Of a stretch of DNA of 64,000 nt, positions 20,711-62,229 are shown piece after piece. The position numbers were made by a program, and so were the translations under genes. Within the stretch, counting starts at the first letter, position 1, and every line of letters begins with the position of its first letter. The stretch lies in contig JAWMAR010000541.1 in NCBI GenBank assembly GCA_036785375.1, positions 558,001-622,000 of the forward strand. The letters are read 5' to 3'. Source of the DNA: Leucoraja ocellata (taxonomy: Eukaryota). The notes under the pieces were generated by a model that saw only the letters and a list, made by a program, of their open reading frames with translations, did no database searches and was not told the DNA's origin.

Positions 20711-20984
20711 GCCGAGCCTATTGTATATTGTCTATTGAAAGAGTCTCCCAACGTCAAAAGATGGAGTAATAACAAGAATTTAGTCACATTAAACTATCTC
20801 AAGAGCGATGGAAGAATCATCTTGAGGAAGAGTCAGCAATAAATCATTCAGGTGCAAGTAGGTTATCACCTAGAATTTTGAACATTACAAGTCTGATCAA
20901 GGCTTTTGACATCAAAAAAGGAGGAACCGTGATCTCGCCTTCACTGTGATCCCTGATTCCCATTTCATCATGTCCCACTTCAAT

Positions 20985-22164
20985 GTGTCCCCACATCACC
21001 GTGTCCCCACATCACCGTGTCCCCCTGTCCCCACATCACCGTGTCCCCACATCACCGTGTCCCCCTGTCCCCACATCACCCTGTCCCCACATCACCGTGT
21101 CCCCCTGTCCCCACATCACCGTGTCCCCCTGTCCCCACATCACCCTGTCCCCACATCACCGTGTCCCCACATCACTGTGTCCCCCTGTCCCCACATCACT
21201 GTGTCCCCCTGTCCCCACATCACCGTGTCCCCCTGTCCCCACATCACTGTGTCCCCCTGTCCCCACATCACTGTGTCCCCACATCACCGTGTCCCCACAT
21301 CACCGTGTCCCCCTGTCCCCACATCACCGTGTCCCCCTGTCCCCACATCACCGTGTCCCCCTGTCCCCACATCACTGTGTCCCCACATCACCGTGTCCCC
21401 ACATCACCGTGTCCCCCTGTCCCCACATCACTGTGTCCCCCTGTCCCCACATCACCGTGTCCCCACATCACTGTGTCCCCCTGTCCCCACATCACTGTGT
21501 CCCCACATCACCGTGTCCCCACATCACTGTGTCCCCCTGTCCCCACATCACCGTGTCCCCCTGTCCCCACATCACTGTGTCCCCACATCACCGTGTCCCC
21601 CTGTCCCCACATCACCGTGTCCCCCTGTCCCCACATCACTGTGTCCCCACATCACTGTGTCCCCCTGTCCCCACATCACTGTGTCCCCCTGTCCCCACAT
21701 CACTGTGTCCCCCTGTCCCCACATCACTGTGTCCCCCTGTCCCCACATCACCGTGTCCCCACATCACCGTGTCCCCACATCACCGTGTCCCCACATCACC
21801 GTGTCCCCACATCACTGTGTCCCCCTGTCCCCACATCACCGTGTCCCCACATCACCGTGTCCCCACATCACCGTGTCCCCACATCACCGTGTCCCCCTGT
21901 CCCCACATCACCGTGTCCCCACATCACCGTGTCCCCCTGTCCCCACATCACCGTGTCCCCGTGTCCCCACATCACCGTGTCCCCACATCACCGTGTCCCC
22001 ACATCACCGTGTCCCCACATCACCGTGTCCTCCTGTCCCCACATCCCCCTGTCCCCACATCACCGTGTCCCCCTGTCCCCACATCACTGTGTCCCCCTGT
22101 CCCCACATCACTGTGTCCCCACATCACCGTGTCCCCCCGTCCCCTCATCACCGTGTCCCCACAT
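20985..22164. repeat. C-rich minisatellite built from two octamers (STGTCCCC, ACATCACY) in 16- and 24-bp units
   Basis: About 1.18 kb of gtgtccccacatcacc/t and gtgtccccctgtccccacatcacc/t. Confidence 0.97.
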
Positions 22165-23272: not shown

Positions 23273-23452
23273 GCTACAGTATGCACCATATTGCACTATT
23301 TCAAGCTGAAAAATGCAAATGTTCCGTACCAATGGGAAGGGGACAATATACTGAATGATCATATTGAATGGCGGTGCAGGCTTGAAGGGCCGAATGGCCT
23401 ACTCCTGCACCAAATTTCTATGTTTCTTCAGAAAGGAGGTGAGGAGGAAGTT

Positions 23453-25732
23453 ACAAAAAGGCTGGAGAAACTCAGCGGGTGCAGCAGCATCTATGGAGCG
23501 AAGGAAATAGGCAACGTTTCGGGCCGAAACCCTTCTTCAGACTGATCGGGGGCGGGGGTGGGTGGGGACAAGAAAGGGAAAAGGAGGAGTAGCCAGAAGG
23601 CTGGGGGGTGGGAGGAGACAGCAGGGGGGCTGAGGAAGGGGAGGAGACAGCAAGGACTAACAAAATTGGGAGAATTCGATGTTCATGCCCCCGGGGTGCA
23701 GACTCCCCAAACGGAATATGAAGTGCTGTTCCTCCAATTTCCGGTGCTGCTCGCTGTGGCCATGGAGGAGACCCAGGACAGAGAGGTCGGAGACGGAGTG
23801 GGAGGGGGAGTTGAAATACTGAGCCACCGGGAGGTCAGCTTGGTTATTGCGGACCGAGCGGAGGTGTTCGGCGAAACGATCGCCCAACCTCCGCTTGGTC
23901 TCACCGATATAGATCTGCTGACATCTAGAGCAGCGGACGCAATAGATGAGGTTGGAAGAGATGCAGGTGAACCTCTGTCGCACCTGGAACGATTGTTTGG
24001 GTCCTTGAACGGAGTCGAGGGGGGAGGTAAAGGGACAAGTGTTGCATCTCTTGCGGTTGCAAGGGAAAGTGCCCGGGGAGGGGGTGGACCGAGAGGGAAG
24101 GGAAGAATTGACAAGGGAGTTATGGAGGGAGTGGTCTTTGTGGAAGGCAGATATGGGGGGAGATGGGAAGATGTGGCGAGTGGTGGGGTCACGTTGGAGG
24201 TGGCGAAACTGACGGAGGATTACTTTTTGTATGTGACGGCTGGTGGGGTGAAAGGTGAGGACTAGGGGGACTCGGCCCTTGTTGCGAGTGCGGGGATGGG
24301 GAGAGAGAGCAGTGTTGCGGGGTATGGAAGAGACCCTGGTGCGAGCCTCATTTATGGTGGAGGAGGGGAACCCCCGTTCCCTGAATAGTGAGGACATTTC
24401 AGATGTCCTGGTGTGGAACGCCTCATCCGTGGAGCAGATGCGGCGTAGACGGAGGAATTGGGAGTAGGGGATGGAGTCCTTACAGGAAGCAGGGTGGGAA
24501 GAAGTGTAGTCCAGATAGCCATGGGAGTCAGTGGGTTTATAGTGTATGTCGGTTAGAAGTCTATCACCTGCAATGGAGATAGTGAGGTCAAGGAATGGTA
24601 GGGAAGTGTCGGAAATGGTCCAGGTGTATTTGAGTGCCGGATGGAAGTTAGTGGTGAAGTGGATGAAGTCAGTCAGTTGTGTGCGGGTGCAGGAGGTGGC
24701 ACCAAAGCAGTCGTCGATGTAGCGGAGGTAGAGGTCGGGGATGGGGCCCTGGTATGTATTGAACAAGGATTACTCGACGTAACCTACAAATAGGCAGGCA
24801 TAGCTGGGGCCCATGCGTGTGCCCATAGCTACGCCTTGTATTTGGAGGAAGTGGGAGGAGTCGAACGTGAAGTTATTGAGGGTAAGGACCAGCTCCGCTA
24901 GGCGGAGGAGAGTGTCAGTGGCTGGGTATGGGTTGCTTCTCTGGTCGAGGAAGAACCGGAGGGCTATGAGACCATCGTGGTGGGGGATGGAGGTGTAGAG
25001 TGATTGGACGTCCATGGTGAAGATGAGGGGGTGAGGGCCTAGAGAATTGAATGCGCGGAGACGACGGAGAGTGTCTGAGGTGTCTTGAACATAGGTAGGG
25101 AGGGATTTAACCAAGGGTGATAGGATGGAGTCAAGGAATTTGGAAATGAGTTTGGTGGGGCACGAACAGGCGGAGACAATGGGTCTTCCGGGACAATCAG
25201 GTTTGTGGATTTTAGGGAGAAGGTAAAATCGGGCTGTGCGGGGCTGGGGAACGATGAGGTTGGAGGCTCGGTCGGGTAGGGCATTGGAGTGGATGAAGTT
25301 GGTGATGGTGCTGGAGATGGTGGCCTGGTGCTTGTCAGTGGGGTCATGGTCCAGGGGTAAGTAGGAGGAGGTGTCCGATAGTTGGCGCGTGGCCTCAGCT
25401 TTGTAGAGATCGGCGCGCCAGACTACCATGGCACCTCCCTTGTCAGCGGGTTTGATAACCAAATCTGGGTTGTTGCGGAGTCGATGGCAGAACGTTCCTG
25501 TGGTGAGAGATTGGAGTGAGACAGGGGAGTGGAGAAGTTGAGGCGGTTGATGTCGCGACGGCAGTTATTGATAAAAAGTTCTAAAGCCGGAAATTGGCCA
25601 CGAGGGGGGTTCCACGAGGAGGGGGTGCGTTGGAGACGGGAAAAGGGGTCATCAGTGGGGGGCGAGGACTCCTTCCCATGGAAGTACGCTGTGAGGCGGA
25701 GGCGACGGTAGAAGCGCTCCAAGTCGTGGTGG
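23453..25732 (-). mobile_element. Penelope-like element (Neptune type), 5'-truncated, RT + GIY-YIG endonuclease
   Basis: ORFs 24770-25462 (KPADKGG, TMDVQSLYT, GVAMGT) and 23657-24766 (RYIDD, CNRKRCNTC linker, LIYCVRC...YIGET) are in one frame, split by one stop. ggaggaagtt is duplicated at 23443-23452 and 25733-25742. Inserted in a CR1 3' fragment. Confidence 0.93.
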
Positions 25733-25742
25733 GGAGGAAGTT

Positions 25743-25962
25743 CTTTCGTCAGCAAGTATTTAATCTGAGGAACACATTGCCACAGGGAGCCGTGGAGGCC
25801 GTCAGTGGGGATTTTAAGGCAGAGATAGACAAATTCCTGATTAGAACGGGTGTCAAGGGTTCTGGGGAAAAGTCAGGAAAATGGGATTAGGAGGCAGAGC
25901 CATAATTGAATGACGGAGTGGACTCGATGGGCCGAATTCTCATCCTATCATTTGTGAACATG
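25743..25962 (+). mobile_element. CR1 3' end abutting the class II beta promoter
   Basis: FFRQQVFNLRNTLPQ...AEIDKFL; CR1 3'UTR gatgggccgaat...cctatcatttgtgaacatg. Confidence 0.75.
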
Positions 25963-26160
25963 CCCGGCTGTGATTGGCCCCTCTCTACCCGGCTGTGATT
26001 GGCCCCTCTCTACCCGGCTGTGATTGGCCCCTCTCTACCCGGCTGTGATTGGCCCCTCTCTACCCGGCTGTGATTGGCCCCTCTCTACCCGGCTGTGATT
26101 GGCTCCTCTCTACCCGGTTGTGATTGGTGATTGGTTTGTGCTGCTGGGTCGGTATATAAA
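25963..26160 (+). promoter_or_regulatory. MHC class II beta proximal promoter: 25-bp tandem array of Y boxes (inverted CCAAT) + TATA box
   Basis: Unit cccggctgtgATTGGcccctctcta starts at 25963, 25988, 26013, 26038, 26063, 26088 and 26113, plus one extra tgattgg (8 ATTGG in total). tatataaa at 26153-26160, 77 bp before the ATG. Confidence 0.8.
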
Positions 26161-26236
26161 GCGGGTGTGGTGGTGTCGCTGCTGTTTAGCTCCAGGCTGT
26201 GGGATCTTTGCTTTAGTTGGTGCCCAGTGAGCGGTG

Positions 26237-26333
26237 ATGAAGGACGGCGCCGCCCAGCTCCGCTCCCTGTGGTTCAGGGTTGCGCTCTTGTTCTGTTCCC
26301 TGCTGCTCCCTGGACAGCACGATGTTGGAGTCG
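26237..26333 (+). CDS. DAB: MHC class II beta exon 1 (signal peptide)
   Basis: MKDGAAQLRSLWFRVALLFCSLLLPGQHDVGV + 1 nt, then GTGAGT donor at 26334; lies downstream of Y boxes and TATA; CpG-rich. Confidence 0.8.
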
Positions 26334-26759
26334 GTGAGTAGCGACTGTAACTTCTGTGATGGATCTGTCCCGATCTGGCATCTTGCCGGGTCTCAGCGCT
26401 CACTCGCGGCTCCGTGTCTCCGCGGCCACGGAGCTGGTAGTGGAAGGACACGGGCTTTAGGGTGATGTAGGGATGTTGTCCACACTAGTAATGGAAGTGT
26501 CGCATTCGGCCCCTTGACAAAAACCACCATTCCGTAAACTTACCTCTGATCTTGGGCACCATCTCCCTGCACGATACAGTACTGTATTCCTTGTTCTCCT
26601 CGCTGCCCTGAAACTTCCGCCGCCCGCAGTACCAGACGTCCAGTAACTCGAGTGAAGAAAGTCTCGGCAACTCTCTTAAACCATCCCGGGACTTGACATT
26701 TCAGCCGCGGGAAAACGCCCCCTGTCGTCCAGCCTGTCCCGCTACCGAACTATTTTATA

Positions 26760-27200
26760 CATTGTAAGTAAGTTTATTGGCCAAGTATTCACATACAAGG
26801 AATTTGCCTTGGTGCACCGCCCACAAGTCACAACATGACATACAGTGACAGTTACAAATGACTCGGACAACACTAAACATTAATAATATAAAACATTAAT
26901 GATAAAACACCATTGATCAAGCATGTGAACCAACAAGATACCGGATCAAAGGGGGCTACAGATATTTGGCTGTTGAGTAGAGCAACTACTCGTGGATAAA
27001 ATCTGTTTGGCTGTGGCAGCTTTGTCAGTCCGGAGTCGCCTTCCAGTGAGAAGTGATTCAAAGAGTTTGTGGCCAGGGTGAGAGGGGTCAGAGATGATCT
27101 TGCCCGCTCACTTCCTGGCCCTTGCAGTGTACAGTTCATCATTGGATGGAAGGTTGCAGCCAATAATCTTCTCTGCTGATCGGACGATTTGCTGCATTGT
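26760..27200 (-). mobile_element. Rex1/Babar-like LINE 3' fragment
   Basis: Minus-strand remnants of HPGHKLFESLLTG and FYPRVVALLN; 3' tail near 26765-26780. Confidence 0.55.
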
Positions 27201-27639: not shown

Positions 27640-29790
27640 GTGTTAAGATAGACACAACATGCTGGAGCAACTCTGCGGGACAGGCAGCATCTGTGGAGAG
27701 AAGGATGGGATGACGTTTTGGATTGAGACCAATGGAAAGTCTAGAGGTATGGAAGGGGGAAGGTGTGAAAACAACAGATGGAAGCAGAATGGTAGAATGG
27801 TTCATTGTTGGCCGAGGGGAGGGTGTCAAGGAGGTAAATAATCAGTCAAATTCATCAGATGGACAGTGAAACTAACCGGAGAACTAGTGTGGGGGAGGGG
27901 TGGAGAGAGGGAAAACAAGGGTTACTTAATGTTAGAAAAATCTATATACTGCTGGGGTGTAAACTGCCTAAGCAAAATGAGGTGCTATTTCTCCAATTGG
28001 CATTGGGCCTCACAGAGTGGAGGAGGCCCAGGACAGAAAGGTCAGTGTGGGAATGAGGGGAGTTAGTGTTTAGTAACCGGGCGATCGCGTAGGCCTAGGT
28101 GGACTGAGTTGAGGTGATCAGTGAGACAATCGCTGAGCCGGTGCTTGGTCTCGCCAATATACAGGAGTCCACACCTGGAACAGTGGATATAGTAGATGAG
28201 GTGCAGTAAACCTCTGCCTCACCTGAAAGAAAATCAGGGTCGTTAAATGGAGTCGATGGGGGAGCTGTAGGGACAGGTGTTGCATTTCCTGCGGTTGCAG
28301 GGGAAAGTACCTGGGCACGGGGTGGTTTGGGTGGGAAGGGATGAGTTAACCCAGGAGTTGCGGAGGGAATGGTCTCTGCGGAAGGCGGAAAGGGGTGAAG
28401 ATGGGATGAAGCGGCGAATGGTGGGATCCTGTTGGAGGTGACAACAATGTTGGAGGATTATATGCTGTATGCAACAGCTGATGGGGTGAAAGGTGAAGAC
28501 TAGGGGCACTCTGTCCCTGTTGGGGGAGGGGGAACACAAGTGCAGCTGCGGGGTACTGAGGAGACCTGCTCTGATCTCACCTATGATGGAAGAAGGGAAT
28601 CCCTGTTCCTTAAAGAATGAGAACATCTGGGATGTCCTTGTATGGAACACAACTTGTCTTGGGGCAAGGAGTGGTGCAGATGGAGGGATTGAGAGTAGGG
28701 GATAGTCTTTTCAGGAGGCAGGATGGGAAGAAGTGTAGTCTAGACAGATGTCAGTCGATAGTCTATCTCCAGTGATGGAGATGGTGAGATCAGGAAATGG
28801 AAGGGAGATGTCGGAGATGGTCCAAGTGAATTTGAGTGCAGGAGGCAGCCCCGATGCAGTTGACAATGTAGCGGAGATAGGGTTTGGGGATAAGGCCAGT
28901 GTACGCCTGGAACAGGGATTGTTGGACATACCCTACAGAGAAGCAGGCATAGCTGGGGCCCATGTGAGTGCCCATAGCTACGCCTTGGATTTGGAGGAAA
29001 TGGGAGGAGTCAAAGTTGTTGAGAGTAAGGACCAGCTTCGCTCAGTGGAGGAGAGTGGAGGGAAATTGGTTAGTTCTGCGGTTGAGGAAGAAACAAAGGG
29101 CTTTAAGGCCTTCCTGGTTGGAGATAGAGGGGGAGAGTGACTGAACATCCACAGTGACGATGAGGGAGTGGGGGGGGCTGGAAAATGGATGTCATTGAAG
29201 AGACAAAAGGGATCTGATGTGTCTTGGACACGAGTCGGGGGAGGAGGGGGGGAGGGATAAGATGGAGTTGAGGTATGTGGAAATGAATTCAGTGGGACAG
29301 GAGCAGGCAGGAACAATGGGTGCGCAAGGCCAGTTGTGTTTATGGGTTTTGGGGAGGAGGTTAAACCGGGCCGTGCGGGGCTGGGAAATGACAAGGTTGG
29401 AGGCTGCAGAGGGCAGACAGCTGAAAGTGATCAAATCAGACATACTCCGATTATGGTTGTCTGTGGTCCAAGGGCAAGTCAGGTGTCTGAGAGCTGGTGC
29501 CTGGTGTCACTATGGTAGAGGTCAGCTCACCAGTCGGTCACGGCACCTCCCATGACGGTGAGTTGATATGATATTGGGGTTGGTGCAGAGTGAGCGGTGG
29601 CCTGTACGTTCAGATGGGGAGAGGTTAGAGTAGGTGAGGTGAGTGGAAAAGTTGAGACAGTTGATGTCACATTGGTAGTTACAAATAAAGATCTAAAGAG
29701 GGTAGACGGCTGCCTGGGAGAGTGCAGAGGAGTGGGACGGGTGGGGTAGGGGTCATCACTGAGTGGTGAGGAATCCTTCCCATAGAGTAA
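27640..29790 (-). mobile_element. Degraded Penelope-like element
   Basis: Fragments PRTARFNLLPK, MGTHMGPSYAC, RVPLVFTFHP, PGTFPCNRRKCNTCP, collinear with the copy at 23453-25732. Confidence 0.88.
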
Positions 29791-30376
29791 TGCCCCTGTC
29801 CCACTTAGGAGACCTGAACGGAAACCTCTGGAGACTTTGCGCCCCACCCAAGGTTTCTGTGCAGTTCCCGGAGGTTTTTGTCAGTCTCCCTAATGGTCGA
29901 AAGTGGTTTCCGCTTCTTCTATGTTCTGCCGATTATTTCAAAAAATTAAAAACCGGCCGCGACTAAAAATAGGTTGCCGTTTTAAAAATCGGTCATTTTT
30001 TAGTTGAAGCCGGTAGCCATGCTAGTTGAAGGTGGTTGCCGGAGGTTGCTGGTAGTGGAAGGTAAGACCCTTTTCCCACCCAGTTTTATTCCACCAGGGA
30101 TCGTCTTACCTTCCACCACGGCAACCTATTTTTAGTCGGCTTTGAATTTTTTTAAATAACCGCCGGATCATAGAAGAAGTCTCAGTTGCAGTGGGGAGTT
30201 TGCATGTTCTCCCTGTGGCCATTAATTCCCTCCCTTCTCTCTCTCCCTCCCTTCTCCCTTCTCTCTCCGCTTTCGACCACTTTCGACAAAAACCTCCAGG
30301 AACTGCACGGAAACCTCGGGTGGGGCGCAAAGTCTGCAGAGGTTTCCGTTCAGGTCTCCTAAGTGGGACAGGGGCA
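29791..30376. mobile_element. MITE with ~95-bp TIRs, PIF/Harbinger (Tourist-like)
   Basis: tgcccctgtcccacttaggagacctgaacggaaacc... and its reverse complement ending at 30376; flanked by taa/tta; shares the terminal cctgtcccact with the MITE at 17119. Confidence 0.85.
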
Positions 30377-30900
30377 TTAGGAGGTAATGGAAGAAAAGCT
30401 CTTTCATATGGCAGAGAGGAACGAAGGAAAGGCCTCTGAGGACTGTCAGGAGCAGTCCAGCTGTGGGTAGTTGACATGGAGTGTCGGTGGAATGACAAGT
30501 CTGGAGGCAGACAAAGCTAGTAGTCTGTGGTGAGAAACTGGTTGTTGAGGCTTGGACCTAGTGTAGAATGAAGTAAAGTTGTGAGAGGCATAGAGTAAAC
30601 ATTCAGAGATTGTTCCCAGGGTCCAACAATAGAGGGTTAAGGTGAGAGGCAGAATGTTTTATGGAGATATACAAGGCAAGTTTGTTGGTGAGTAGTGGAG
30701 GCCTGGAGCACGTTGCCAGCGATGGTGGTGACAACAGATACAATGGTGGTGGCATTTAGGAGACTTTTGGATGGGTACATGGAAGCGCAGAGGATAGAGG
30801 GATATGGATCATGTGCAGGCAGATAAAATCTGTTTATGTTTGGGGCAAACATTGTGGGCTGAAGGGCCATTCATGTGCAGGACTGTTCTGTTCCAGACTA

Positions 30901-31262
30901 GAGGCCCGGGACCGTTGGAGAGCAGTGGAGGAGGGTCAGGGCGGTGAGCACTTAAATCGGGCGCGGGGCTTGTTTTCACAGAGGCCCGGGACCGTTGGAG
31001 AGCAGTGGAGGAGGGTCAGGGCGGTGAGTACTTAAATCGGGCGCGGGGCTTTATTTCACAGAGGCCCGGGACCATTGGAGAGCAGTGGAGGAGGGTCAGG
31101 GCGGTGAGTACTTAAATCGGGCGCGGGGCTTGTTTTCACAGAGGCCCGGGACCGTTGGAGAGCAGTGGAGGAGGGTCAGGGCGGTGAGTACTTAAATCGG
31201 GCGCGGGGCTTTATTTCACAGAGGCCCGGGACCGTTGGAGAGCAGTGGAGGAGGGTCAGGGC
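30901..31262 (+). repeat. 80-bp tandem monomers (4.5 copies) at the CR1 5' end
   Basis: Unit gaggcccgggaccgttggag...ttttcaca at 30901, 30981, 31061, 31141 and 31221 (partial). Confidence 0.95.
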
Positions 31263-31644
31263 TTTTTTACCAAAATCCGTAACGTTCCACACTCCATAGT
31301 GAGGGTTCTGGTGGAAGCCGCTGATTGGTGGAAGCAGACTAGAGGAAGCAATTGATTGGGTGCAACCTCAGGTTAGCATTTGTGCTTTCTGGTTAAAGGT
31401 ACAGTGCTGTAGTAAAGGCACAGTGGGCTAAAGGTGCAGTGCTTTAGTAAAGGTACAGTGGGCTAAAGGTGCAGTGCTGTAGTAAAGGTACAGTGGGCTA
31501 AAGGTGCAGTGCTTTTTGTTTATATAATAAAGGTGCAGTTTAAAGGTCACGAGGGAGCAGCTGTTGTGAGTCAGATACCTGCTGATTTCTCCCAGCAGTT
31601 TCTATTGTATTATACTTGTATCGGATCCAGGGTAAGGCGGGAGA

Positions 31645-32577: not shown

Positions 32578-35500
32578 AATGGTTGGGGCGAGGGACTCAA
32601 ATAGAGAAAGCTAGTAGACAGAATGGGAGGCAGGAAGCAGAAAAGGGAAGCACTCGGACACAAGAGGAGAAAGAAAAAAAGGAAATAAACAGAATAAGAG
32701 ACTAAGTTTCTTAAATGTGCATATTTTAATGCTAGGAGCATTGTAAGAAAGGTGGATGAGCTTAGAGTCTGGATAGACACCTGGAAGTATGATGTTGTGG
32801 CGATCAGTGAAACGTGGTTGCAGGAGGGCTGTGATTGGAAACTAAATATTCCAGGATTTCGTTGCTTCAGGTGTGATAGAATTGGAGGGGCAAGAGGTGG
32901 AGATGTTGCATTGCTAGTCAGGGAAGATATTACAGCAGTGCTTTGACAGGATAGATTGGAGGGCTCATCTAGGGAGGCTATTTTGGGTGGAATTGAGAAG
33001 TGGGAAAGGTGTAGCAACACTTATAGGGGTGTATTATAGACCGCCAAACGGGGAGCGAGAATTGGAAGAGCAAATATGTAAGGAGATGGCAGATATTAGG
33101 AGTAAGCACAAGGTAGTGATTGGGGGAGATTTCAACTTTCCACACATTGACTGGGAAACACATTCTGTAAATGGGCTGGATGGGTTGGAGTTTGTAAAAT
33201 GTGTGCAGGATAGCTTTTTGCAGCAATACATAGAGGTACCTACTAGAGGAGGGGCAGTGCTGGACCTCCTGTTAGGAAATGAGATGGGACAGGTGGCGGA
33301 GGTATGCGTTGGGGAGCACTGTGATCACAATACCATTAGTTTCAATATAATTATGGAGAGGGTCAGAACTGGACCTAGGGTTGAGATTTTTGATTGGAGA
33401 AAGGCTAACTTTGATGAGATGCGAGATGATTTAAAAGGAGTGAACTGGGACATTTTGTTTTATGGGAAAGATGTAGAAGAGAAATGGAGGACATTTAAAG
33501 GGGAAATTTTAAGAATACAGAATCTTTATGTTCCTGTTCGGTTGAAAGGAAACAGTAAAAATTGGAAAGAGCCATGGTTTTCAAGGGAAATTGGACATCT
33601 TGTTCGGAAAAAGAGAGAGATCTACAATAATTATAGGCAGCATGAAGTAAATGAGGTGCTTGAGGAGTATAAGGAATGTAAAAAGAATCTTAAGAAAGAA
33701 ATTAGAAAAGCTAAAAGAAGATATGAGGTTGCTTTGGCAAGTAAGGTGAAAGTAAATCCAAAGGGTTTCTACAGCTATATTAATAGCAAAAGGATAACGA
33801 GGGATAAAATTGGTCCATTGGAGAGACAGAGTGGACAGCTATCTGCAGAGCCAAGAGAGATGGGGGAGATATTGAACAATTTTTTTTTCTTCGGTATTCA
33901 CCAAAGAGAAGGATATTGAATTATGTGAGGTAAGGGAAACGAGTAGAGTAGCTATGGATACTATGAGGTTCAAAGTAAAAGAAGTACTGACACTTTTGAA
34001 AAATATAAAAGTGGATAAGTCTCCAGGTCCTGACAGGATATTCCCTAGAACATTGAGGGAAGTTAGTGTAGAAATAGCCGTGGCTATGACAGAAATATTT
34101 CAAATGTCATTAGAAACGGGAATAGTCCCCGAGGATTGGCGTACTGCGCATGTTGTTCCATTGTTTAAAAAGGGTTCTAAGAGTAAACCTAGCAATTATA
34201 GACCTGTTAGTTTGACTTCAGTGGTGGGCAAATTAATGGAAAAGATACTTAGAGATAATATATATAAGCATCTAGATAAACAGGGTCTGATTAGGAACAG
34301 TCAACATGGATTTGTGCCTGGAAGGTCATGTTTGACTAATCTTCTTGAATTTTTTGAAGAGGTTACTAGGGACATTGACGAGGGTAAAGCAGTGGATGTT
34401 GTCTATATGGACTTTAGTAAGGCCTTTGACAAGGTTCCTCATGGAAGGTTGGTTAAGAAGGTTCAACTGTTGGGTATAAATGCAGGAATAGCAAGATGGA
34501 TTCAACAGTGGCTGCATGGGAGAAGCCAGAGGGTAATGGTGGATGGCTGTTTATCGGGTTGGAGGCAGGTGACTAGTGGGGTGCCTCAGGGATCTGTGTT
34601 GGGTCCTTTGTTGTTTGTCATGTACATCAATGACCTGGATGAAGGGGTGGTAAATTGGATTAGTAAGTATGCAGATGATACCAAGATAGGGGGTGTTGTG
34701 GATAATGAAGAGGATTTCCAAAGTCTACAGAGTGATTTAGGCCATTTGGAAAAATGGGCTGAAAGATGGCAGATGGAGTTTAATGCTGATAAATGTGAGG
34801 TGCTACACCTTGGCAGACAAATCAAAATAGGACGTACATGGTAAATGGTAGGGAATTGAAGAATACAGTTGAACAGAGGATCTGGGTATAACCGTGCATA
34901 GTTCCTTGAAGGTGGAAATCTCATATAGATAGGGTGGTAAAGAAAGCTTTTGGTATGCTAGCCTTTATAAATCAGAGCATTGAGTATAGAAGCTGGGATG
35001 TAATGTTAAAATTGTACAAGGCATTGGTGAGACCAAATCTGGAGTATGGTGTACAATTTTGGTCGCCCAATTATAGGAAGGATGTCAACAAAATAGAGAG
35101 AGTACAGAGGAGATTTACTAGAATGTTGCCTGGGTTTCAACAACTAAGTTACAGAGATAGGTTGAATAAGTTAGGTCTTTATTCTCTGGAGTGCAGAAGG
35201 TTAAGGGGGGACTTGATAGAGTCTTTAAAATGATGAGAGGGGATAGACAGAGTTGATGTGGACAACCTTTTCCCTTTGAGAATAGGAAGATTCAAACAAG
35301 AGGACGTGACTTCAGAATTAAGGGACAGAAGTTTAGGGTAATATGAGGGGGAACTTCTTTACTCAGAGAGTGGTAGCGGTGTGGAATGAGCTTCCAGTGG
35401 AAGTGGTGGAGGCAGGTTCATTGGTATCATTTAAAAATAAATTGGATAGGCATATGGATGAGAAGGGAATGGAGGGTTATGGTATGAGTGCAGGCAGGTG

Positions 35501-36419
35501 GGACTAAGGGGAAAATCAATTTGTTCGGCACGGACTTGTAGGGCCGAGATGGCCTGTTTCCGTGCTGTAATTGTTATATGGTTATATGGTTAAACTGAAA
35601 TGGGTATGTGGCCTTTTAAGGCTGAGCTTGTATCTGGTGGAATTCAAGATGAGAGTGGATTAAATCAAGTTCCCAACAGGTCTTGGGGGGAGGGTAGAGG
35701 GGGACGAGAGGTGGGAGGAGGGGGGGGGAGTGGGAAGGGAGGGGTGGGAGAGAGGAGAAGGGAGGGACTTAAAGGCCACGGGGAGAACATGCAAACGCCA
35801 CACAACAACTGAGGATTGAAACCAGGTCACTGATCCTATGAAGCAAGCACTCTAATTTACTGCTGCCCAAGCCAGAATCCAAATTTGAGACAGAACCCAA
35901 ATAATCCAGCTGTAATTTTTGATGCCACAAGTGTTCGTGACTCAGACTTTCCCAGGTGTAATCAGTGATCCTTGTGGGTTCCAACCCACCCTGCAGCATT
36001 GCTGCACCTGCCTCAGATGTGACTGTAGTTGTAGTTGCCCGAACAGTGTGGGCTGGTTATATTAAATACTCAATCCCACAGTCAGATCTCTGTACCTACT
36101 TTATGTCTGTGGAATGTGCCCAGAATGATTCATTCCCAAATCTAACTGGGCATTTTGCTTGTTGGAGCCTTGCACAGACAACATGCCTCACCCTTGTCCC
36201 TCACTCTGTCCATGTTCTGTTATTGTCCATCCAACCTTTGTTCCCTGAACCCTGGATTCCACTGCAAGCCTCATGTCCCCACTGATTAATCTACAAACAA
36301 GAGTAAAATGAGATTTAAAATACATTTACATAATATAATGGATATGAAGTGGTTTGGACGGCTATGGACAAAGTGCAGGCATTTGGGATTTGTGCAGAAT
36401 GGACAAAGTTGGGCCAATA

Positions 36420-36610
36420 AACTGCAGATGCTGGAATATCGAAGGTAGACAAAAATGCTGGAGAAACTCAGCGGGTGCAGCAGCATCTATGGAGCGAAGG
36501 AAATAGGTGACGTTTTGGGAGGGACGTTGAAGGGTTCGGCCCGAAACGTCACCCATTTCCTTCGCTCCATAGATGCTGCTGCACCCGCTGAGTTTCTCCA
36601 GCATTTTTGT
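36420..36610. mobile_element. Second Penelope-derived inverted pseudo-LTR pair
   Basis: caaaaatgctggagaaactcagcggg...ggtgacgttt followed by its reverse complement ...aaacgtcacc...ctccagcatttttg. Confidence 0.8.
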
Positions 36611-37254
36611 GGACCTGTTTCTGTGCTGTACAGCTGACTCCAAATCTGATTTATTCCACTCCTATCAAACTTGACCCCTGCATACTGATCATTAATTTTC
36701 CCCAGACATTGATCTCATTCCCAGCAAGTTGTGCCCCCACCAAACACCTAGTCCCCTCATTGTAAACCACTTTGCCCCCTTAAAATATCAGTTTGGATGA
36801 ATGACAGCATCCCTTGATACAGTTCCCATCTGTGAAACCAGTTGCAACTGCTGACTGACCACTGGCCTGGTCTTCATCCTCCAGCACTTGTGATGGTTGT
36901 GCATCAAGACCAGGTCTGCTGAAAGGAAGCTGTTGCCCACACCTTCCCATTGTCCTCTACAGGGAACTTCCTACAGGTCCTGGGTGTGACTGCCCTGTCT
37001 CCATTCTGTGGGTTGATTACCGCAGATGTTACTGACCCTCATGTACGGGATTGGCCCTCTGGCCATGGGGACTGGACCATGGTGGTGGCACCAGGACTAG
37101 TGTTAGTTGTTGACCAGCAGGTGAGAGGTGTTAGTCTGGACAGGACACATGTCTTTCAGTGGGGCGAGGGGAGAAGGATGGCCCCAAGGGGTGAGAGTGT
37201 CCAGTGTGGGAGTAATCTTGTATCCCTTCCTCCCCCCCCCCCCCCCCACTGCAG

Positions 37255-37525
37255 GGGCTCACGCCGGATGCAGGATTGTGGGCTGTTTTTTTTAACAGCA
37301 ATGACACCAAGCAGTGGACCTACACTGATCACCAAACCTATGATGGCGAGCTCATCTACTTCTTTGACTTTGACCAGAGGAAGTTTGTAGCAGCAAAGGA
37401 CTGGATGCAGAGCAACGTGGACAGATGGAATAAGGACGGGTCAGCAGAATCAGCATACCAGGGTGGGATCGGCATGTGTGAGAACAACGTTCCCATTTAT
37501 CAAAGAGAGGTGCTGCCCTGGAGAG
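37255..37525 (+). CDS. DAB: MHC class II beta exon 2 (beta-1 peptide-binding domain), +1 frameshift in a T8 run
   Basis: GAHAGCRIVGC|F/FNSNDTKQWTYTDHQTYDGELIYFFDFDQRKFVAAKDWMQSNVDRWNKDG...MCENNVPIYQREVLPWR; conserved Cys pair, W-N and NDT sequon; 271 nt versus the canonical 270. Confidence 0.92.
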
Positions 37526-38201
37526 GTGAGCGGGGCAAGGGTGGGGAGATGTCCTGGTGAGATGGGCCAACCATGGGAATGGGGTTCCATGGATAGTCAC
37601 AACCAGGGAGTGGGTGAAGCTTCTGCTGCCGGTGATGGAGCTGGGAAACAGTTGCAGATCACAATTCTGATCATCTGACCATTCCCCTCAAACCCCTGGT
37701 GGGATTCTCTGCTGGACACTACATTGTAAACCCATGCGAACAGATGGATTCTAGACACTGCCTGTTGTGTGGGCTGCTTGCATGTGGGAGCACACAAGCA
37801 GGTTATTTGGCCCATCGTGGCCCTACCAGCCCATCTGTGCTAACCCAATGGCCCAGCACTTGGTCTGTCACCACCTCTCACCTGGAAATCTGCTTTACTA
37901 CCTCTAAGGTGCTGTGTCCCAGACTCAATCTCCCCTCCCTCTCGAATATCTCCTGCCTTGGGGTCCACTCTAAATCTGATCCCTGGCCCTCAACCCACAC
38001 GGACATTATCCTGGACATTGGCTGCTGTTCGTGCAGTAATCCAGTCCTGGGCAGTTCTGGTCATTGGCTGGTGGTTCGTCCATCATCTGCCTCATCCAGA
38101 CTAAAGATTAACCTTCATTTCCTGGTGATGATCTCTCCACAATTCCACTTCCCTCTGCTCCATCCAAACTGCTTCATATCCCTGTAATATTCTTCCACAC
38201 T

Positions 38202-38720
38202 TTCTCTCTCCTCCCTCTTCCTCTCTCTCCCCCTCTTTCTCTCCTCTNNNNNNNNNNNNNNNNNNNNNNNNNNNNNNNNNNNNNNNNNNNNNNNNNNNNN
38301 NNNNNNNNNNNNNNNNNNNNNNNNNNNNNNNNNNNNNNNNNNNNNNNNNNNNNNNNNNNNNNNNNNNNNNNNNNNNNNNNNNNNNTCCCCCCCCTCTCTC
38401 TCTCCCCCCCCTCTCTCTCTCCCCCCCCCTCTCTCTCTCCCCCCCCCTCTCTCTCTCTCCCCCCCCTCTCTCTCTCCCCCCCCTCTCTCCTCCCCTCCCC
38501 CCCCCCCTCCTCCCCTTCTTNNNNNNNNNNNNNNNNNNNNNNNNNNNNNNNNNNNNNNNNNNNNNNNNNNNNNNNNNNNNNNNNNNNNNNNNNNNNNNNN
38601 NNNNNNNNNNNNNNNNNNNNNNNNNNNNNNNNNNNNNNNNNNNNNNNNNNNNNNNNNNNNNNNNNNNNNNNNNNNNNNNNNNNNNNNNNNNNNNNNNNNN
38701 NNNNNNNNNNNNNNNNNNNN
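38202..38720. repeat. C/T-rich low-complexity tract with two assembly gaps (N 38248-38385, 38521-38720)
   Basis: (ct)n/(c)n polypyrimidine sequence flanking runs of N. Confidence 0.95.
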
Positions 38721-38789
38721 GTGCCCTACATCAAGCTTTTTACTGTAGACTGTGATTCTCACATTGCTATCTTCTGCTTTCTCCTACAG

Positions 38790-39069
38790 TTAAACCTGAG
38801 ATCACAATCCGGCCCAAAGTCTCCCCCCACATGGGACAGTCGGCTCTACTCACCTGTCACGTCACTGGTTTCTACCCTTCTGAGATTGAAGTCACATGGC
38901 TGAAGAACGGAGCCCCAGTCCCCAGCGTGCATCAACACAGTGCTGCTGTCAGACGGTGACTGGACCTATCAAGTGGAGGAGCTCCTGCAGTACCACCCGG
39001 TGTCTGGGGATACCTACACCTGCCGTGTGGAGCACAGCAGCCTGGAAAAGTTCGTGGACATGGACTGGG
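38790..39069 (+). CDS. DAB: MHC class II beta exon 3 (beta-2 Ig C1 domain), frameshift at ~38927-38930
   Basis: VKPEITIRPK...LLTCHVTGFYPSEIEVTWLKNG, then in another frame INTVLLSDGDWTYQ...YTCRVEHSSL...DW; 280 nt versus the canonical 282. Confidence 0.94.
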
Positions 39070-39147
39070 GTAAGGTGCAGAGCAGCCACAACTGTGCTCC
39101 TTCCAGCCTTGTCTCAGTGATGTCCACATTCCACACCATCTATGTAG

Positions 39148-41995
39148 ACATAGAAACATAGAAATTAGGTGCAGGAGTAGAGGCCATTCAGCCCTTTGAG
39201 CTGCACCATTCGCCATTCAATATGATCATGGCTGATCATCCAACTCAGTATCCCGTACCTGCCTTCTCTCCATACCCCCTGATCCCCTTAGCCACAAGGG
39301 CCACATCTAACTCCCTCTCAAATATAGCAAATGAACTGGCCTCAACTACCTTCTGTGGCAGTGAATTCCACCACTCTCTGTGTGAAATTGTTTTTCTCAT
39401 CTCGGTCCTAAAATAATTCCCCCTTATCCTTAAGCTGTGGCCCCTCGTCCTGGACTTCCCCAACATCGGGAACAATCTTCCTGCATCTAGCCTGTCCAAC
39501 CCCTTATGAATTTTGTAAGTTTCTATAAGATCCCCCTCAATCTTCTGAATTCTAGCGAGTACAAGTCGAGTCTATCCAGTCTTTCTTCATATGAAAGTCC
39601 TGACATCCCAGGAATCAGTCTGGTGAACCTTCTCTGCACTCCCTCTATGGCAAGAATGTCTTTCCTCAGATTTGGAGACCAAAACTACGCAATACTCCAG
39701 GTGTTGTCTCACCAAGACCCTGTACAACTGCAGTAGAACCTCCCTGCTCCTATACTCAAATCCTTTTGCAATGACAGCTAACATACCATTCGCTTTCTTC
39801 ACTGCCTGCTGCACCTGCATGCCTACCTTCAATGACTGGTGTACCATGACACCCAGTTCTCGTTGCATCTCCCCTTTTCCTAATCGGCCACCATTCAGAT
39901 AATAGTCTACTTTTCCTGTTTTTGCCACCAATGCGGATAACTCACATTTATCCACATTATACTGCATCTGCCATGCATTTGCCCCACTCACCCAGTCACC
40001 TTGCAGCCTCCTAGCATCCTCCACACAGCTAACACTGCCCCCCAGCTTCGTGTCATCCTCAAACTTGGAGATGTTGCATTCAATTCCCTCATCCAAAATC
40101 ATGAATATATATTGTACATAGCTGGGTCCCAGCACTGAGCCTTGCGGTACCCCACTAGTCACTGCCTGCCATTCTGAAAAGGACCCGTTTACTCCTACTC
40201 TTTGCTTCCTATTTTCCAGCCAGTTCTCTATCCACATCAATACTGAACCCCCAATACCGTGTGCTTTAAGTTTGTATATCTTATCTCTTATGTGGGACCT
40301 TGTCGAAAGCCTTCTGAAAGTCCAGATACACCACATCCACAGGTTCTCCCCTATCCACTCTACTAGTTACATCCTTGAATAATTCTATAAGATTCGTCAG
40401 ACATGATTTACCTTTCGTAAATCCATGCTGACTTTGTCCAATGATTTCACCACTTTCCAAATGTGCTGCTATCCCATCTTTAATAACTGACTAGCAGTTT
40501 CCCCACTATCGATGTTAGACTAACTTGTCTGTAATTCCCCGTTTTCTCTCTCCCTCCCTTTTTAAAAAGTGGGGTTACATTAGCTACTCTGCAATCCTCA
40601 GAAACTACTCCAGAATCTAAAGTTTTGAAAAATTATCACTAATGCATCCATTATTTCTGGGGCTACTTCCTTAAGTACTCTGGGATGCAGCCTATCTGGC
40701 CCTGAGGTTTTATTGGCCTTTCCTGGCTAACCTGATTTCACTCAGGTTCCTCCATTTCATTTGACCCCTGGTCCCCTGCTATTTCCGGCAGATTATTTAT
40801 GTCTTCCTTAGTGAAGACAGAACCAAAGTAGTTATTCAATTGGTCTGCCATATCCTTGTTCCCCATGATCAATTCACCTGTTTTCTGACTGCAAGGGACC
40901 TACATATATTTTAACTAATCTCTATCTTCACACATTTATAAAAACATTTGCAGTCAGTTTTTATTTTACCCTGCCAGTCTTCTTTCATAATCAATTTTCC
41001 CTGTCCTAATTAAGCCCTTTGTCCTCCTCTGCTGGACTCTGAATTTCTTCCTGTCCACCAGTCCTCTGGAAGGCTGCTTTTTCTGGCTAATTTGTATGCT
41101 TCATCTTTTGTTTTTGATACTATCCCTGATTTCCCTTGTTATCCACGGATGCACTACCTTCCCTGATTTATTATTTTGCCAAACTGGGATGAACAATTGT
41201 TGTAGTTCATGCATGCAGTCTTTAAATGTCTTCCATTGCATATCCACCGTCAACCCTTTAAGAATCAATTGCCAGTCTATCTTGGCCAATTCACGTCTCA
41301 TACCCTCAAAGTCACCTTTCTTTAAGTTCAGGACCCTTGTTTCTGAATTAACAAGGTCACTCTCCATCCTAATGAAGAACTGAAACCATATTATGGTCAC
41401 TCTTGCCCAAGGGGCACGTACAACAAGATTGCTAACTAACCCTTCCTCATTACTCAATACCCAGTCTAGAATAGCCTGCTCCTCGTTGGTTCCTCTACAT
41501 GTTGGTTTAGAAAAACTATCCTGCATACATTCCAAGAAATCCTCTTCCTCAGCACCCTGCCAATTTGATTCACCCAATCTATATGTAGATTGAAGTCACC
41601 CATTATAACTGTTTTACCTTTGTTGCACACATGCTAATTTCCTGTTTGGTGCCATCCCCAACTCCACTACTACTGTTAGGTGGCCTGTACACAACTCCCA
41701 CTAGCGTTTTCTGCCCCTTAGTGTTTCGCAGCTCTACCCATATTGATTCACATCCTCCAAGCTAATGTCCTTCTTTCCATTGCGTTAATCTCCTCTCTAA
41801 CCAGCAACGCTACCCCACATCCTTTCCTTTCTGTCTATCCCTCCTGAATATTGAATATCCCTGGATGTTCAGCTTCCAACACGGTCCTTCAGGAGCTGTA
41901 CCTGGATGCACTTGTCACATTTGTAGCAGCCAGAGGCACCAGCGGTGTCCTTGACCTCCCTGCAATACTACATACTGCAAGCATCACACTGAATC
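39148..41995 (-). mobile_element. CR1 LINE (family of 10635-14845), internally deleted, in beta intron 3
   Basis: Collinear with 10637-13320, then jumps to ORF1 N-terminal sequence (41875-41995 matches ~14470-14585); many single-base indels. Confidence 0.9.
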
Positions 41996-42436: not shown

Positions 42437-42551
42437 ATGTGCAGAGCACTACCGAGTCTGAGAGAACCAAGATCATCGTGGGAGCGCTGGGCTTTGTGTT
42501 TGGGCTGCTCATCCTGCTGGCTGGAGTTAATGAAGCTGAGGAACGCTAAAG
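42437..42551 (+). CDS. DAB: MHC class II beta exon 4 (connecting peptide + TM), frameshift at ~42529
   Basis: TACTAAC branch point at 42409-42415; DVQSTTESERTKIIVGALGFVFGLLILLAGV, then shifted MKLRNAK; donor gtgagc at 42552; 115 nt (not 3n). Confidence 0.92.
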
Positions 42552-50925: not shown

Positions 50926-50955
50926 CTATCCTGGATTCCACCGGCCATGGCCCAC
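50926..50955 (+). CDS. DAB: MHC class II beta exon 5 (cytoplasmic, 30 nt)
   Basis: tttctcttccag acceptor, (A)ILDSTGHGP, gtaagt donor; phase-compatible with exons 4 and 6. Confidence 0.85.
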
Positions 50956-52072: not shown

Positions 52073-52098
52073 GTCTGATGCCCACTACGGTTGCTTAG
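52073..52098 (+). CDS. DAB: MHC class II beta exon 6 coding part (RLMPTTVA*), followed by 3'UTR
   Basis: ctctgttccag acceptor; continues the exon 5 frame to TAG at 52096-52098. Confidence 0.82.
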
Positions 52099-52493: not shown

Positions 52494-52499
52494 ATTAAA
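52494..52499 (+). terminator. Probable polyadenylation signal of the class II beta gene (ATTAAA)
   Basis: ATTAAA ~400 nt after the stop, followed by the GT-rich tgtcacgtgttgtgtc. Confidence 0.55.
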
Positions 52500-59715: not shown

Positions 59716-60421
59716 AGTGTTTAGAAACTATCCTAAAACCAAGCACCCATGTCATTCATCTGGTCCCTTGGGGTGACATCCCTTCCCTTGTGTGAGGGGT
59801 GTCTTCACCAGATTGTTCCCCTCAATGTCCCACTGTGAAATGACCCTAAACTGTGGTCCACCCCCACAGAGCATTGGCGTGGTCTACACCAAGCTTCAGA
59901 GAGTCCCTCAGCGTTTCCTTCTCCAGTGTGAAATAGACCAGTCAGCAACATTCCTGATGGACATCTAGCTGTGCTGGGACTTTAACAAGGCTCTGGCTGG
60001 GAGGGCCCATCTCACCGCCACCCAAGCAAAGAGTTAGAGCTTTTTTGTGTGTTCTGACGATGAGGCATATCGGTAGACAAGCTGGGCAGTCTGACTGCAA
60101 TGCGTCTGTAGAAATAGATAAAAGTCTTTGGGGACATGTCAAACTTCCTGAGCTGGAGGTATTGGTTTGCATCCATGGTCACTATGTCAGTGTGGTTGGA
60201 TCAGGACTAGTAACCATCTAAGAGTGGGAGAGAAGGAGGGGGGGGGTGATGGGATTTGTTCCGGAGATGCCGGTGTGTTATCCCGGGCTGGGAAGCAGAA
60301 CTAGCTTCTTTCAGACGGGCCACTGGGGGAGGGGTTGTCAGTAATATCATCAACCACAAGCAACAGAGAAACAGAGTGCAGCCTCCCAAACCGCAGACTC
60401 ACTAACATGGGGAATAAACAG

Positions 60422-60463
60422 CCAATGAAGTGGTGCAGCTGTAGCTTGTCACCTGTTGCCGGG
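60422..60463 (-). promoter_or_regulatory. Candidate MHC class II X-Y regulatory module 1 (inverted)
   Basis: Minus strand CCCGGCAACAGGTG + 23 nt (starting ACA, giving the X2-like TGACA) + ATTGG; same spacing as HLA-DRA CCTAGCAACAGATG...CTGATTGG. Confidence 0.7.
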
Positions 60464-61975
60464 TAGGATCTGTTTTTGAAGTCTGGTTGGGACTAGGATA
60501 TGTAGAGATCATCTGTATCTGAGGGAATGGTAAATAGAGGTGAAGGATGGCAGCGAAAGGGGAACATAATAACGCACCTATTGTCTCTCCGCTGACTGGT
60601 TAGCACACAGTAAATGCTTTTCACTGTACCTTGATACACGTGGCAATAAACTAAACTCAAACTCAAAACCGTGCTGGAGGAAGTCAGTGGGTCAGGCAGC
60701 ATCTGTGGAGGGAATGGACAGATGACATTTCTGGTTGGGACCCTTCTTTCATTTCGTTTGTTGTGGGGGGTAGAAAGCTGGAAAAGACACATGAGGGCAG
60801 GACAAAGATGGGCAAGTGCTGGGTGGATACAGGTGGATTGATGGAGGGTTGGAGTGAGTGACAAAAGAATCTTCAAAACTGTGTCACGTCTCACGCCCTC
60901 ATGTCTCTGTATTTATCTCTGGCCTTTGTTCCAATCATCTATCCATCAAAACCCCCCTCGCCTGTGTCTACCTGCTGTGCTCTCTCCCCTTCTCCCCTCA
61001 ACTACAATCAGCCCAAAGTAGTGTATTGACTAGAAACATCATCGATCCATGTTCTCCAGTGTTGCTGTAACCTTGCTGCTTAACCTGCTGAGTTACTCCA
61101 GTACTTTATGTCCTTTTGTGCATTAACCAGCATCTGCAGTTCTTTTTTTCTAGGTTTCGACAAAAGTTGGAAGTTTAAAGACAAGAAGGCGCTAGATAAG
61201 GAGAGATATCTCCCAAGTTACCTTTTTTTTCTGTTAATATACTCGTAGAATCTGATAGGATTCTGCGATGACATATCTGCTAAAAATGTGTGTCCTCCTG
61301 AATTCTTTAAGTGCACTCCTATATTGCTTCTGCTCCTCAAGGGAATTGCTTGATCACAGCAATCTATCCCTGGCATATACCTCCTTCTGGATGTTGGAAA
61401 TCTGAACTAACGGAGAATGTTGGGAATGTCCAGCAGGTTAGGTGGCGACTGAGCTAATGTTACAATGGACGATTTACATCAGAACCTGTCAGTAACCGGC
61501 ACAAACTGGAACGGCTGGTTATCTGAAATTGAACCATGGTAGCTGAGGACAGAAGGTGGGGTGGTGGGGTATGAGATTGAACTGTGGGAAACTGGAATAG
61601 AGGGTTGTGGAGATTAGAAACAGCAGCAGATGATCCATATGGTGGCGTTGATATGAGGAAGGACAAGGATATAGTTATGGCGAATGGAGATTACACCAGG
61701 GATTTGCAGGGTTCTGATAAGTGGGAGTCAGGGGTGAGGACAACAGATACTGTGGTGATGATCCAGAGGGTGGGGGTGGGTGAGGAAGGGAAAGGAGGGA
61801 GGGGGAGCTGCGAGGGACCAGTGACCATCCCAGGCGCTGAGAGGGTTTCAAGATGTCAGAGAGCTTGTTCAGATTGCTCAGTGGGGGAGGGTTTGGCTGG
61901 GAAATCACCAACTCCAGGCAGTAGAGAAACAAAGTAAACCTCTCACGTCGCTGGCCCACAAACGAACAAAACTAG

Positions 61976-62017
61976 CCAATACAGCAGTGTGGTTACAGTT
62001 TGTCACGTGTTGCTGGG
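61976..62017 (-). promoter_or_regulatory. Candidate MHC class II X-Y regulatory module 2 (inverted)
   Basis: Minus strand CCCAGCAACACGTG + 23 nt + ATTGG; flanks homologous to module 1. Confidence 0.7.
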
Positions 62018-62229
62018 TAGGATTTATTTATGAAACCTTGTTTTGATAAAGATACAAGTCAAGTTTGTTTTAACCCCATATGTACTGACAATGGAGCAAT
62101 GGAATCCTTACTTCCTGCAGCTTTATCAGCCCATGAACGCAGCAACACAAATAAATGTACAATAGATTTATAATCTGTAATTACAAAACTGATCAAAGTG
62201 CAAAACTGTAGTCAGCAGTGGAACCAAAC

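What the first reader, a model, noticed from the sequence alone, without database searches (positions are those of the whole stretch)
25963..26160. Class II beta promoter is a Y-box VNTR with no recognisable X or S box
Seen: six full 25-bp units plus a partial seventh give eight ATTGG sites directly before a TATA box. Upstream is TE sequence, and I find no GCAAC-type X box at the canonical distance from any Y. Each unit contains CTACCCGGC, identical to the 5' part of distal X box 1 (cCTACCCGGCaacaggtga), so the unit may be a collapsed X/Y fusion, or this may be coincidence. Established: class II transcription normally needs the stereospecific S-X-X2-Y enhanceosome (RFX, CREB, NF-Y) to recruit CIITA. 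Inference: either an NF-Y-multimer promoter whose strength depends on copy number and which relies on distal X-Y modules, or a crippled promoter of a dying gene.
Basis: partly seen in the sequence, partly recalled or inferred. Interest (0 to 1): 0.75.

Follow-up and report, generated by a model that had tools for sequence, protein, structure and literature searches.

The report
Ray immune gene's CCAAT-repeat promoter
In a skate or ray, an MHC class II immune gene lacks the usual switch next to its start and has a run of near-identical CCAAT boxes and a TATA box instead, which, if the gene is active, would be an unusual way to turn such a gene on.

Summary
The array is real: 6.6 copies of a 25-bp unit, 98% identical, eight ATTGG, then TATATAAA and the true exon 1 of a batoid MHC class II beta gene (leader identical to an intact, spliced homologue). 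No X, X2 or S box lies at the canonical distance from any Y; a LINE tail with a nested Penelope-like element abuts the first unit. Two well-formed X-X2-Y modules lie inverted 8-10 kb past the stop codon. The unit reads as pyrimidine tract + 5' half of X joined to Y (109 of 200,000 shuffles; post hoc). New here: exons 2, 3 and 4 are frameshifted as assembled, but only 3 of 268 residues fall outside six intact homologues, splice sites are intact, and part of that region shows excess single-base indels, so consensus error is likelier than a dead gene. Best reading (0.5): a live gene whose S-X was lost, driven by packed NF-Y sites (25 bp, just over the 24-bp minimum) plus TATA, with any CIITA control coming from the distal modules. 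Rival: silenced or dead copy (0.3). Copy-number variation, expression of this copy and factor binding are untested. New variant of a known kind.

The parts
25963..26127 (+). 25-bp minisatellite, 6.6 copies, each with an inverted CCAAT (Y box); first unit truncated at its 5' side
26120..26134 (+). 7-nt duplication that makes the eighth ATTGG (7 bp from the seventh, too close for both to hold NF-Y)
   Evidence: 24-bp minimum from PMC4982600 passages
26153..26160 (+). TATA box (TATATAAA); start site inferred near 26180-26185
   Evidence: start site is inference
26237..26333 (+). Exon 1 coding part (leader), identical to intact homologue P0003; GT donor at 26334
25743..25962 (+). 3' tail of a CR1/L2-type LINE (family name recalled), right part; abuts the first repeat unit and covers the place where X and S should be
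   Evidence: 71% to another tail in the window; tails compared
23453..25742 (-). Young Penelope-like retroelement nested in that LINE tail; 9-nt duplication at 23444-23452 and 25734-25742; one stop and one frameshift in about 2.2 kb
   Evidence: RT match E=1.4e-4, below Pfam cut-off; Penelope label recalled
23421..23452 (+). Left stub of the same LINE tail
37255..37525 (+). Exon 2 (beta-1 domain), frameshift in a T run near 37285-37292
38790..39069 (+). Exon 3 (C1-set domain), frameshift near 38926-38931
42437..42551 (+). Exon 4 (connecting peptide, transmembrane), frameshift near 42529
50926..50955 (+). Exon 5 (cytoplasmic)
52073..52098 (+). Exon 6 coding part and stop
60224..60500 (-). Distal module 1: S-like hexamer (60479-60484), X (60450-60463), TGA half-site, 20-nt spacer, Y (ATTGG 60422-60426), plus about 200 nt homologous to module 2
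61776..62054 (-). Distal module 2: X from 62017, TGA half-site, 20-nt spacer, Y (ATTGG 61976-61980)

Best explanation
This is the true promoter of a batoid classical-type MHC class II beta gene that is probably alive. An ancestral S-X-X2-Y promoter lost its RFX and CREB sites, most likely by a deletion of about 28 nt that joined the pyrimidine tract and 5' half of X to Y; that 25-nt remnant was amplified in tandem; a LINE fragment (later split by a Penelope-like element) came to lie in the first unit and no S box remains. The result is a row of consensus NF-Y sites 25 bp apart, which could hold up to seven NF-Y trimers side by side, in front of a TATA box: a promoter that can give basal transcription without RFX. 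Any CIITA-dependent boost would have to come by looping from X-X2-Y modules such as the two inverted ones 8-10 kb past the gene. Shown: anatomy, missing X, distal modules, nested insertions, coding conservation. Inferred: the fusion origin (about 0.6 on its own), the order of events, the frameshifts being consensus errors, NF-Y binding, transcription of this copy, and the link to the distal modules.
For: Exon 1 identical to an intact 273-aa homologue whose contig is 1279 nt, so spliced. Six nearest homologues group with batoid class II beta, support 99/99, and vary mostly in beta-1 (38 of 90 sites vs 14 of 94 in beta-2). Only 3 of 268 compared residues are absent from all six; the six themselves have 3-16 private residues in leave-one-out. 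10 of 10 splice sites are GT/AG. LINE copy in intron 3 has 22 single-base gaps per 106 substitutions vs 5 per 96 in two control pairs, Fisher p=0.006; in 34816-35420 all 7 single-base losses are G. 7 of 8 Y boxes match the full recalled NF-Y consensus; 25 bp is just above the 24-bp minimum seen in LTR12 arrays (PMC4982600 passages). X+20+Y pattern: 2 hits vs 0.06 expected, 0 of 100 shuffles. Fusion tests; a pyrimidine tract 5' of X is general in class II modules (PMC2278383 Fig. 6 legend). CpG o/e 0.83 at 26201-26800 vs 0.34 window-wide.
Against: As assembled the gene has three frameshifts and R121W at a column invariant in 17 of 17 homologues. The indel excess is patchy: the LINE stretch 39156-39845 beside exon 3 shows 6 gaps per 45 substitutions and the family B pair overall 19 per 137, like controls. 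The intact homologues are unnamed records and may come from a paralogue or related species with a normal promoter; elasmobranchs carry one to four beta genes (PMC10751288 passages) with copy-number variation (PMC9992475 passages). In a bat, two of the five class II genes without S-X-Y are pseudogenes (PMC5437515 passages). In human cells RFX is essential for assembly at class II promoters (PMC2677874 passages). The young retroelement upstream is as CpG-rich as the promoter, so CpG content is weak evidence. The unit also aligns with the spacer+Y of module 2 (17 of 2000 shuffles).
Confidence: 0.5

Rival explanations
1. Dead or silenced copy: insertion and loss of S-X crippled the promoter, the array drifted neutrally as a minisatellite, and the frameshifts are real or the copy is barely expressed; intact transcripts come from a paralogue.
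For: Three frameshifts and R121W; LINE tail abuts the array; introns packed with retroelements; five other minisatellites or satellites in the window show arrays arise readily here; bat precedent.
Against: Control repeat pairs give about 6 substitutions per gap (56/9, 40/7), so 3-4 real indels should come with roughly 18-25 substitutions, yet only 3 of 268 residues are private (the expectation is my inference); splice sites all intact; a second insertion nested in the LINE tail implies time has passed without coding decay.
Confidence: 0.3
2. Lineage-wide design: batoid (or all elasmobranch) class II beta promoters are normally Y box(es) + TATA, with RFX/CIITA input only from distal modules; the array is an expansion on that older plan and no proximal X was lost recently.
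For: A canonical TATA box, unlike human class II genes (PMC2677874 passages); two diverged but conserved distal modules (score 152 vs null 26.6, 0 of 500); no orphan X found in 24.5 kb upstream.
Against: The unit looks like a broken X joined to Y; 98% homogeneity and truncation by a LINE suggest local, recent history; no orthologous promoter could be examined.
Confidence: 0.12
3. Assembly artefact: a join removed a normal S-X-Y, or the array is inflated.
For: N gaps at 38248-38385 and 38521-38720 and error-like indels further into the gene.
Against: Coherent nested insertion with a 9-nt duplication, a nearly open 2.2-kb retroelement frame just upstream, variant bases confined to the last two units, exon 1 exact.
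Confidence: 0.08

Closest known systems
MHC class II promoter-proximal S-X-X2-Y module (RFX, CREB, NF-Y, CIITA)
   Same: Inverted CCAAT (Y) at about 50-60 nt upstream of the inferred start, in front of a class II gene; human modules lie 50-100 bp upstream (PMC2677874 passages).
   Different: No X, X2 or S in register; eight Y instead of one; a TATA box, which human class II genes lack.
Distal S'-Y' enhancers of the human class II locus (for the two modules at 60.4 and 62.0 kb)
   Same: X, TGA half-site and Y with a fixed 20-nt spacer, away from any exon found; S-Y modules work in either orientation in reporters (PMC1802633 passages).
   Different: Downstream of the beta gene, a tandem pair with about 200 nt of further shared sequence; binding and target gene unknown. 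In human they add to a complete proximal module, not replace it.
LTR12-type tandem CCAAT arrays and multi-CCAAT promoters bound by NF-Y
   Same: Direct repeats of consensus CCAAT at near-minimal spacing (24 bp in LTR12, 25 bp here; PMC4982600 passages).
   Different: No LTR context found; the array is single-copy in the window and seems built from the gene's own promoter parts; gene promoters favour 31 bp.
Motif duplications in cetacean DQA and DRA promoters
   Same: Short (11-22 bp) duplications inside class II proximal promoters (PMC6155461 section 5 and passages).
   Different: Those keep S, X and Y intact and have two or three copies; here Y itself is amplified sevenfold and X is gone.

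Membership tests
Proximal S-X-X2-Y module | Y box (inverted CCAAT) just upstream of the start | tested here: met
   start site inferred from TATA
Proximal S-X-X2-Y module | X box at fixed distance 5' of Y | tested here: not met
   5-7 mismatches of 14 at spacer 18-22 for 8 of 8 Y boxes, recalled consensus
Proximal S-X-X2-Y module | S and X2 boxes in register | tested here: not met
   their places are filled by repeat units or LINE tail
Proximal S-X-X2-Y module | RFX- and CIITA-dependent activity | not testable with these tools
   needs reporter or binding assays; CIITA/RFX in cartilaginous fish not confirmed
Distal S'-Y' enhancer (modules at 60.4, 62.0 kb) | X and Y in canonical order and spacing | tested here: met
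   0 and 1 mismatch, spacer 20 in both; 0 of 100 shuffles
Distal S'-Y' enhancer (modules at 60.4, 62.0 kb) | S box | tested here: inconclusive
   S-like hexamer 15 nt before X in module 1, weaker in module 2; consensus recalled
Distal S'-Y' enhancer (modules at 60.4, 62.0 kb) | Not the promoter of an adjacent gene | tested here: inconclusive
   no Ig/MHC Pfam hit in 48 of the 103 frames of 52100-64000 that were scanned; no class II beta hit there; a short leader exon or a gene beyond the window is not excluded
Distal S'-Y' enhancer (modules at 60.4, 62.0 kb) | RFX/CIITA binding and action on this gene | not testable with these tools
   needs ChIP, 3C
LTR12-type tandem NF-Y array | Direct consensus CCAAT repeats at 24 bp or more | tested here: met
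   25-bp period, 7 of 8 full consensus
LTR12-type tandem NF-Y array | Part of an LTR | tested here: not met
   no second copy or LTR context within the window; no repeat library was available
VNTR | Head-to-tail homogeneous units | tested here: met
VNTR | Copy number varies among haplotypes | not testable with these tools
   one haplotype; no eukaryotic genome collection on hand
Elasmobranch classical class II beta gene | Leader, beta-1, C1, TM, tail exons homologous to named class II beta | tested here: met
Elasmobranch classical class II beta gene | Open reading frame | tested here: not met
   three frameshifts as assembled; probably errors
Elasmobranch classical class II beta gene | Assignment to DAB or DBB lineage | tested here: inconclusive
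   tree has no lineage-labelled rows; groups loosely with catshark genes that PMC9992475 calls DBB, deep forks open

The most novel reading that the evidence does not exclude
An expressed, polymorphic classical class II gene in a cartilaginous fish is driven by an RFX-independent NF-Y array plus TATA, built from a collapsed X::Y remnant, with strength set by a repeat number that varies between haplotypes and with CIITA control moved wholly to downstream X-Y enhancers.
Probability: 0.2. Interest if true: 0.8.

Novelty: new variant of a known kind. Interest (0 to 1): 0.5.

Why it matters
The S-X-Y module is described as strictly conserved in sequence, order and spacing at class II genes (PMC1802633 passages). 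A working classical class II gene without a proximal X would be a natural test of whether the enhanceosome must sit at the promoter or can be split between a proximal NF-Y array and distal RFX sites, in the oldest lineage that has MHC. A length-variable array would also offer a simple expression dial linked to class II alleles. The two distal modules suggest by themselves that X-X2-Y geometry exists in cartilaginous fish; my searches of the open library found no paper describing it.

Tried and rejected
Search for a displaced S/X remnant upstream (1430-25962, + strand): five X-like hits with 2 mismatches, none with the RFX core or a Y in register, and no piece of the unit at insertion junctions. 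Array as a LINE tail or a repeat-element promoter: other tails end differently and the unit has no second copy in the window. Distal modules as decayed copies of this promoter or exon 1: downstream sequence does not align (154 and 165 of 500 shuffles). A second class II beta gene in the window: none. Coding exons after the modules: no relevant Pfam hit in 48 of 103 frames. Structured RNA or DNA: no Rfam hit; region folds worse than all 100 shuffles. Bacterial promoter scan not informative. PDB search gave only weak class I hits. Two exon pieces were read in the wrong frame; those rows were dropped and redone. Papers without useful promoter content: PMC4219347 (passages; supplement list only, files unread), PMC10751288 and PMC9992475 (no 'promoter' occurrence), PMC7862078 (one passage), PMC3964593 (no CIITA or RFX in main text or its one supplement). 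Unread supplements and subscription papers may hold shark promoter alignments.

Full report
Observation. The array is as described: 25963-26127, period 25, 6.6 copies, 98% matches. Seven ATTGG recur every 25 nt from 25973 to 26123 and an eighth at 26130 comes from a 7-nt duplication. TATATAAA follows at 26153. Seven of the eight sites match the full NF-Y consensus (recalled), which is 7 of the 16 such sites in the whole window; no other 165-nt stretch has more than 4 cores. With a recalled X consensus none of the eight Y boxes has an X at 18-22 nt (5-7 mismatches of 14). The 9-mer shared with the distal X box is exact at five places. Variation in copy number is not shown.

The gene. The beta-1 piece found six unnamed homologues at 71-86%; five are full 273-aa proteins on contigs of 990-1313 nt, hence spliced. 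A second search added a sixth full-length one and named shark and ray class II beta chains at 55-71%. The six group with batoids, support 99/99. Mapping them on the window gives six exons from 26237 to 52098; the leader is identical to P0003, so this is the true exon 1. The W-type alternative was not tested separately; all best named hits are class II beta.

Alive or dead. As assembled, exons 2, 3 and 4 each carry a frameshift: in a T run, at two shortened doublets, and by a 2-nt loss. Against real decay: only 3 of 268 compared residues are absent from all six intact homologues, which themselves have 3-16 private residues (one further junction residue differs from the six but is shared with a named skate protein); 10 of 10 splice sites are canonical; control repeat pairs show about six substitutions per gap, so I infer that real indels should have come with many more changes. 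The LINE copy in intron 3 has 22 single-base gaps per 106 substitutions against 5 per 96 in two control pairs (hand count; p=0.006), and seven of seven single-base losses in 34816-35420 are G. For real decay: R121W sits at a column invariant in 17 of 17 homologues, the stretch beside exon 3 (39156-39845) shows no indel excess, and the intact homologues may come from another locus or species. I put consensus error above true frameshifts but not beyond doubt.

What lies upstream. The first unit is cut 7 nt before its Y octamer by the 3' tail of a LINE (71% to its nearest relative in the window). A Penelope-like element (label recalled; weak RT match) is nested in that tail, with a 9-nt duplication at both ends and only one stop and one frameshift in 2.2 kb. 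So two insertions followed each other, and local sequence quality near the promoter looks fair. No displaced X or unit remnant was found in the 24.5 kb upstream.

Distal modules. Two X-X2-Y modules lie on the minus strand (X at 60463 and 62017), each with 20 nt between X and the Y octamer; 0.06 expected, 0 of 100 shuffles. They are homologous over about 280 nt (0 of 500 shuffles) but not to the proximal region downstream of Y. They are 8-10 kb past the stop codon and inverted relative to the gene. No exon was found after them (48 of 103 frames scanned). They resemble the human distal S'-Y' enhancers (PMC2677874, PMC1802633, passages), but might serve a gene beyond the window; beta-2-microglobulin and BRD2 are linked to this region in elasmobranchs (PMC10751288 abstract).

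Origin of the unit. Read from the pyrimidine run, the unit is pyrimidine tract, 5' half of X, then Y. Human modules carry a pyrimidine tract 5' of X (PMC2278383 figure legend). Removing 28 nt between two GC dinucleotides of module 2 would give nearly the same string (seen by eye). Shuffled units share 9 nt with either module in 145 of 20,000 trials, and directly against Y in 109 of 200,000. A looser local-alignment test was weaker (85 of 2000 for module 1), and the unit also aligns to the spacer+Y of module 2 (17 of 2000). The tests were designed after the match was noticed. I give fusion about 0.6 and plain spacer+Y duplication the rest.

Mechanism. The RFX core and X2 are absent, so the standard enhanceosome, in which RFX nucleates assembly (PMC2677874 passages), cannot form here. 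NF-Y needs at least 24 bp between sites, the spacing found in LTR12 arrays (PMC4982600 passages); 25 bp allows up to seven trimers. With a TATA box, which human class II genes lack, this reads as a CCAAT/TATA promoter able to fire without RFX, with inducible input, if any, from distal modules. These steps are inference. Whether rays have CIITA and RFX was not confirmed (no mention in PMC3964593 main text or supplement).

Comparison and novelty. It fails membership as an S-X-Y module, works most like a tandem NF-Y array, and goes beyond the small duplications known in cetacean class II promoters (PMC6155461 section 5). Class II genes without S-X-Y are known in a bat, two of five being pseudogenes (PMC5437515 passages). 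Five searches of the open library found no description of cartilaginous-fish class II promoters or of a Y-box array at a class II gene (listings only); a search on LTR12 spacing found nothing. Subscription papers and unread supplements could hold such data.

Verdict. A real and odd promoter at a probably living class II beta gene: new variant of a known kind. Live gene with an NF-Y array 0.5, silenced or dead copy 0.3, lineage-wide design 0.12, artefact 0.08. Interest 0.5, up to 0.8 if expression and length variation are shown.

Noticed in passing
window 60224-60500 and 61776-62054 (-): Pair of homologous X-X2-Y modules with about 200 nt of further shared non-coding sequence; possible distal class II enhancers in a cartilaginous fish.
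   Followed up: yes
window 34816-42551: Patchy excess of single-base indels and two N gaps; three exon frameshifts fall here, so annotation would probably call this gene broken.
   Followed up: yes
window 23453-25742 (-): Young Penelope-like retroelement nested in a LINE tail with a 9-nt duplication; its 3' end is a 90-nt repeat found five times in the window that resembles a minimal hammerhead ribozyme (recalled; no Rfam hit at gathering threshold).
   Followed up: partly
window 26223-26236 (+): X-like 14-mer in the 5' UTR just before the ATG, one mismatch in the RFX core, no Y downstream; 40 of 5000 shuffles.
   Followed up: partly
window 1283-1429 (+): Last coding exon of what looks like a class II alpha chain (transmembrane glycine pattern, recalled; no Pfam hit), tail-to-head with the beta gene.
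   Followed up: no
window 20971-22164, 30900-31262, 31394-31513, 51634-52008, 53388-53734: Other satellites and minisatellites (8/16/24, 80, 35, 59 and 48 bp units); the 80-bp one heads a near full-length LINE in intron 1, the 59-bp one lies in intron 5.
   Followed up: no
window 29790-30375: Element with terminal inverted repeats inserted in an older Penelope-like copy in intron 1 (read by eye).
   Followed up: no
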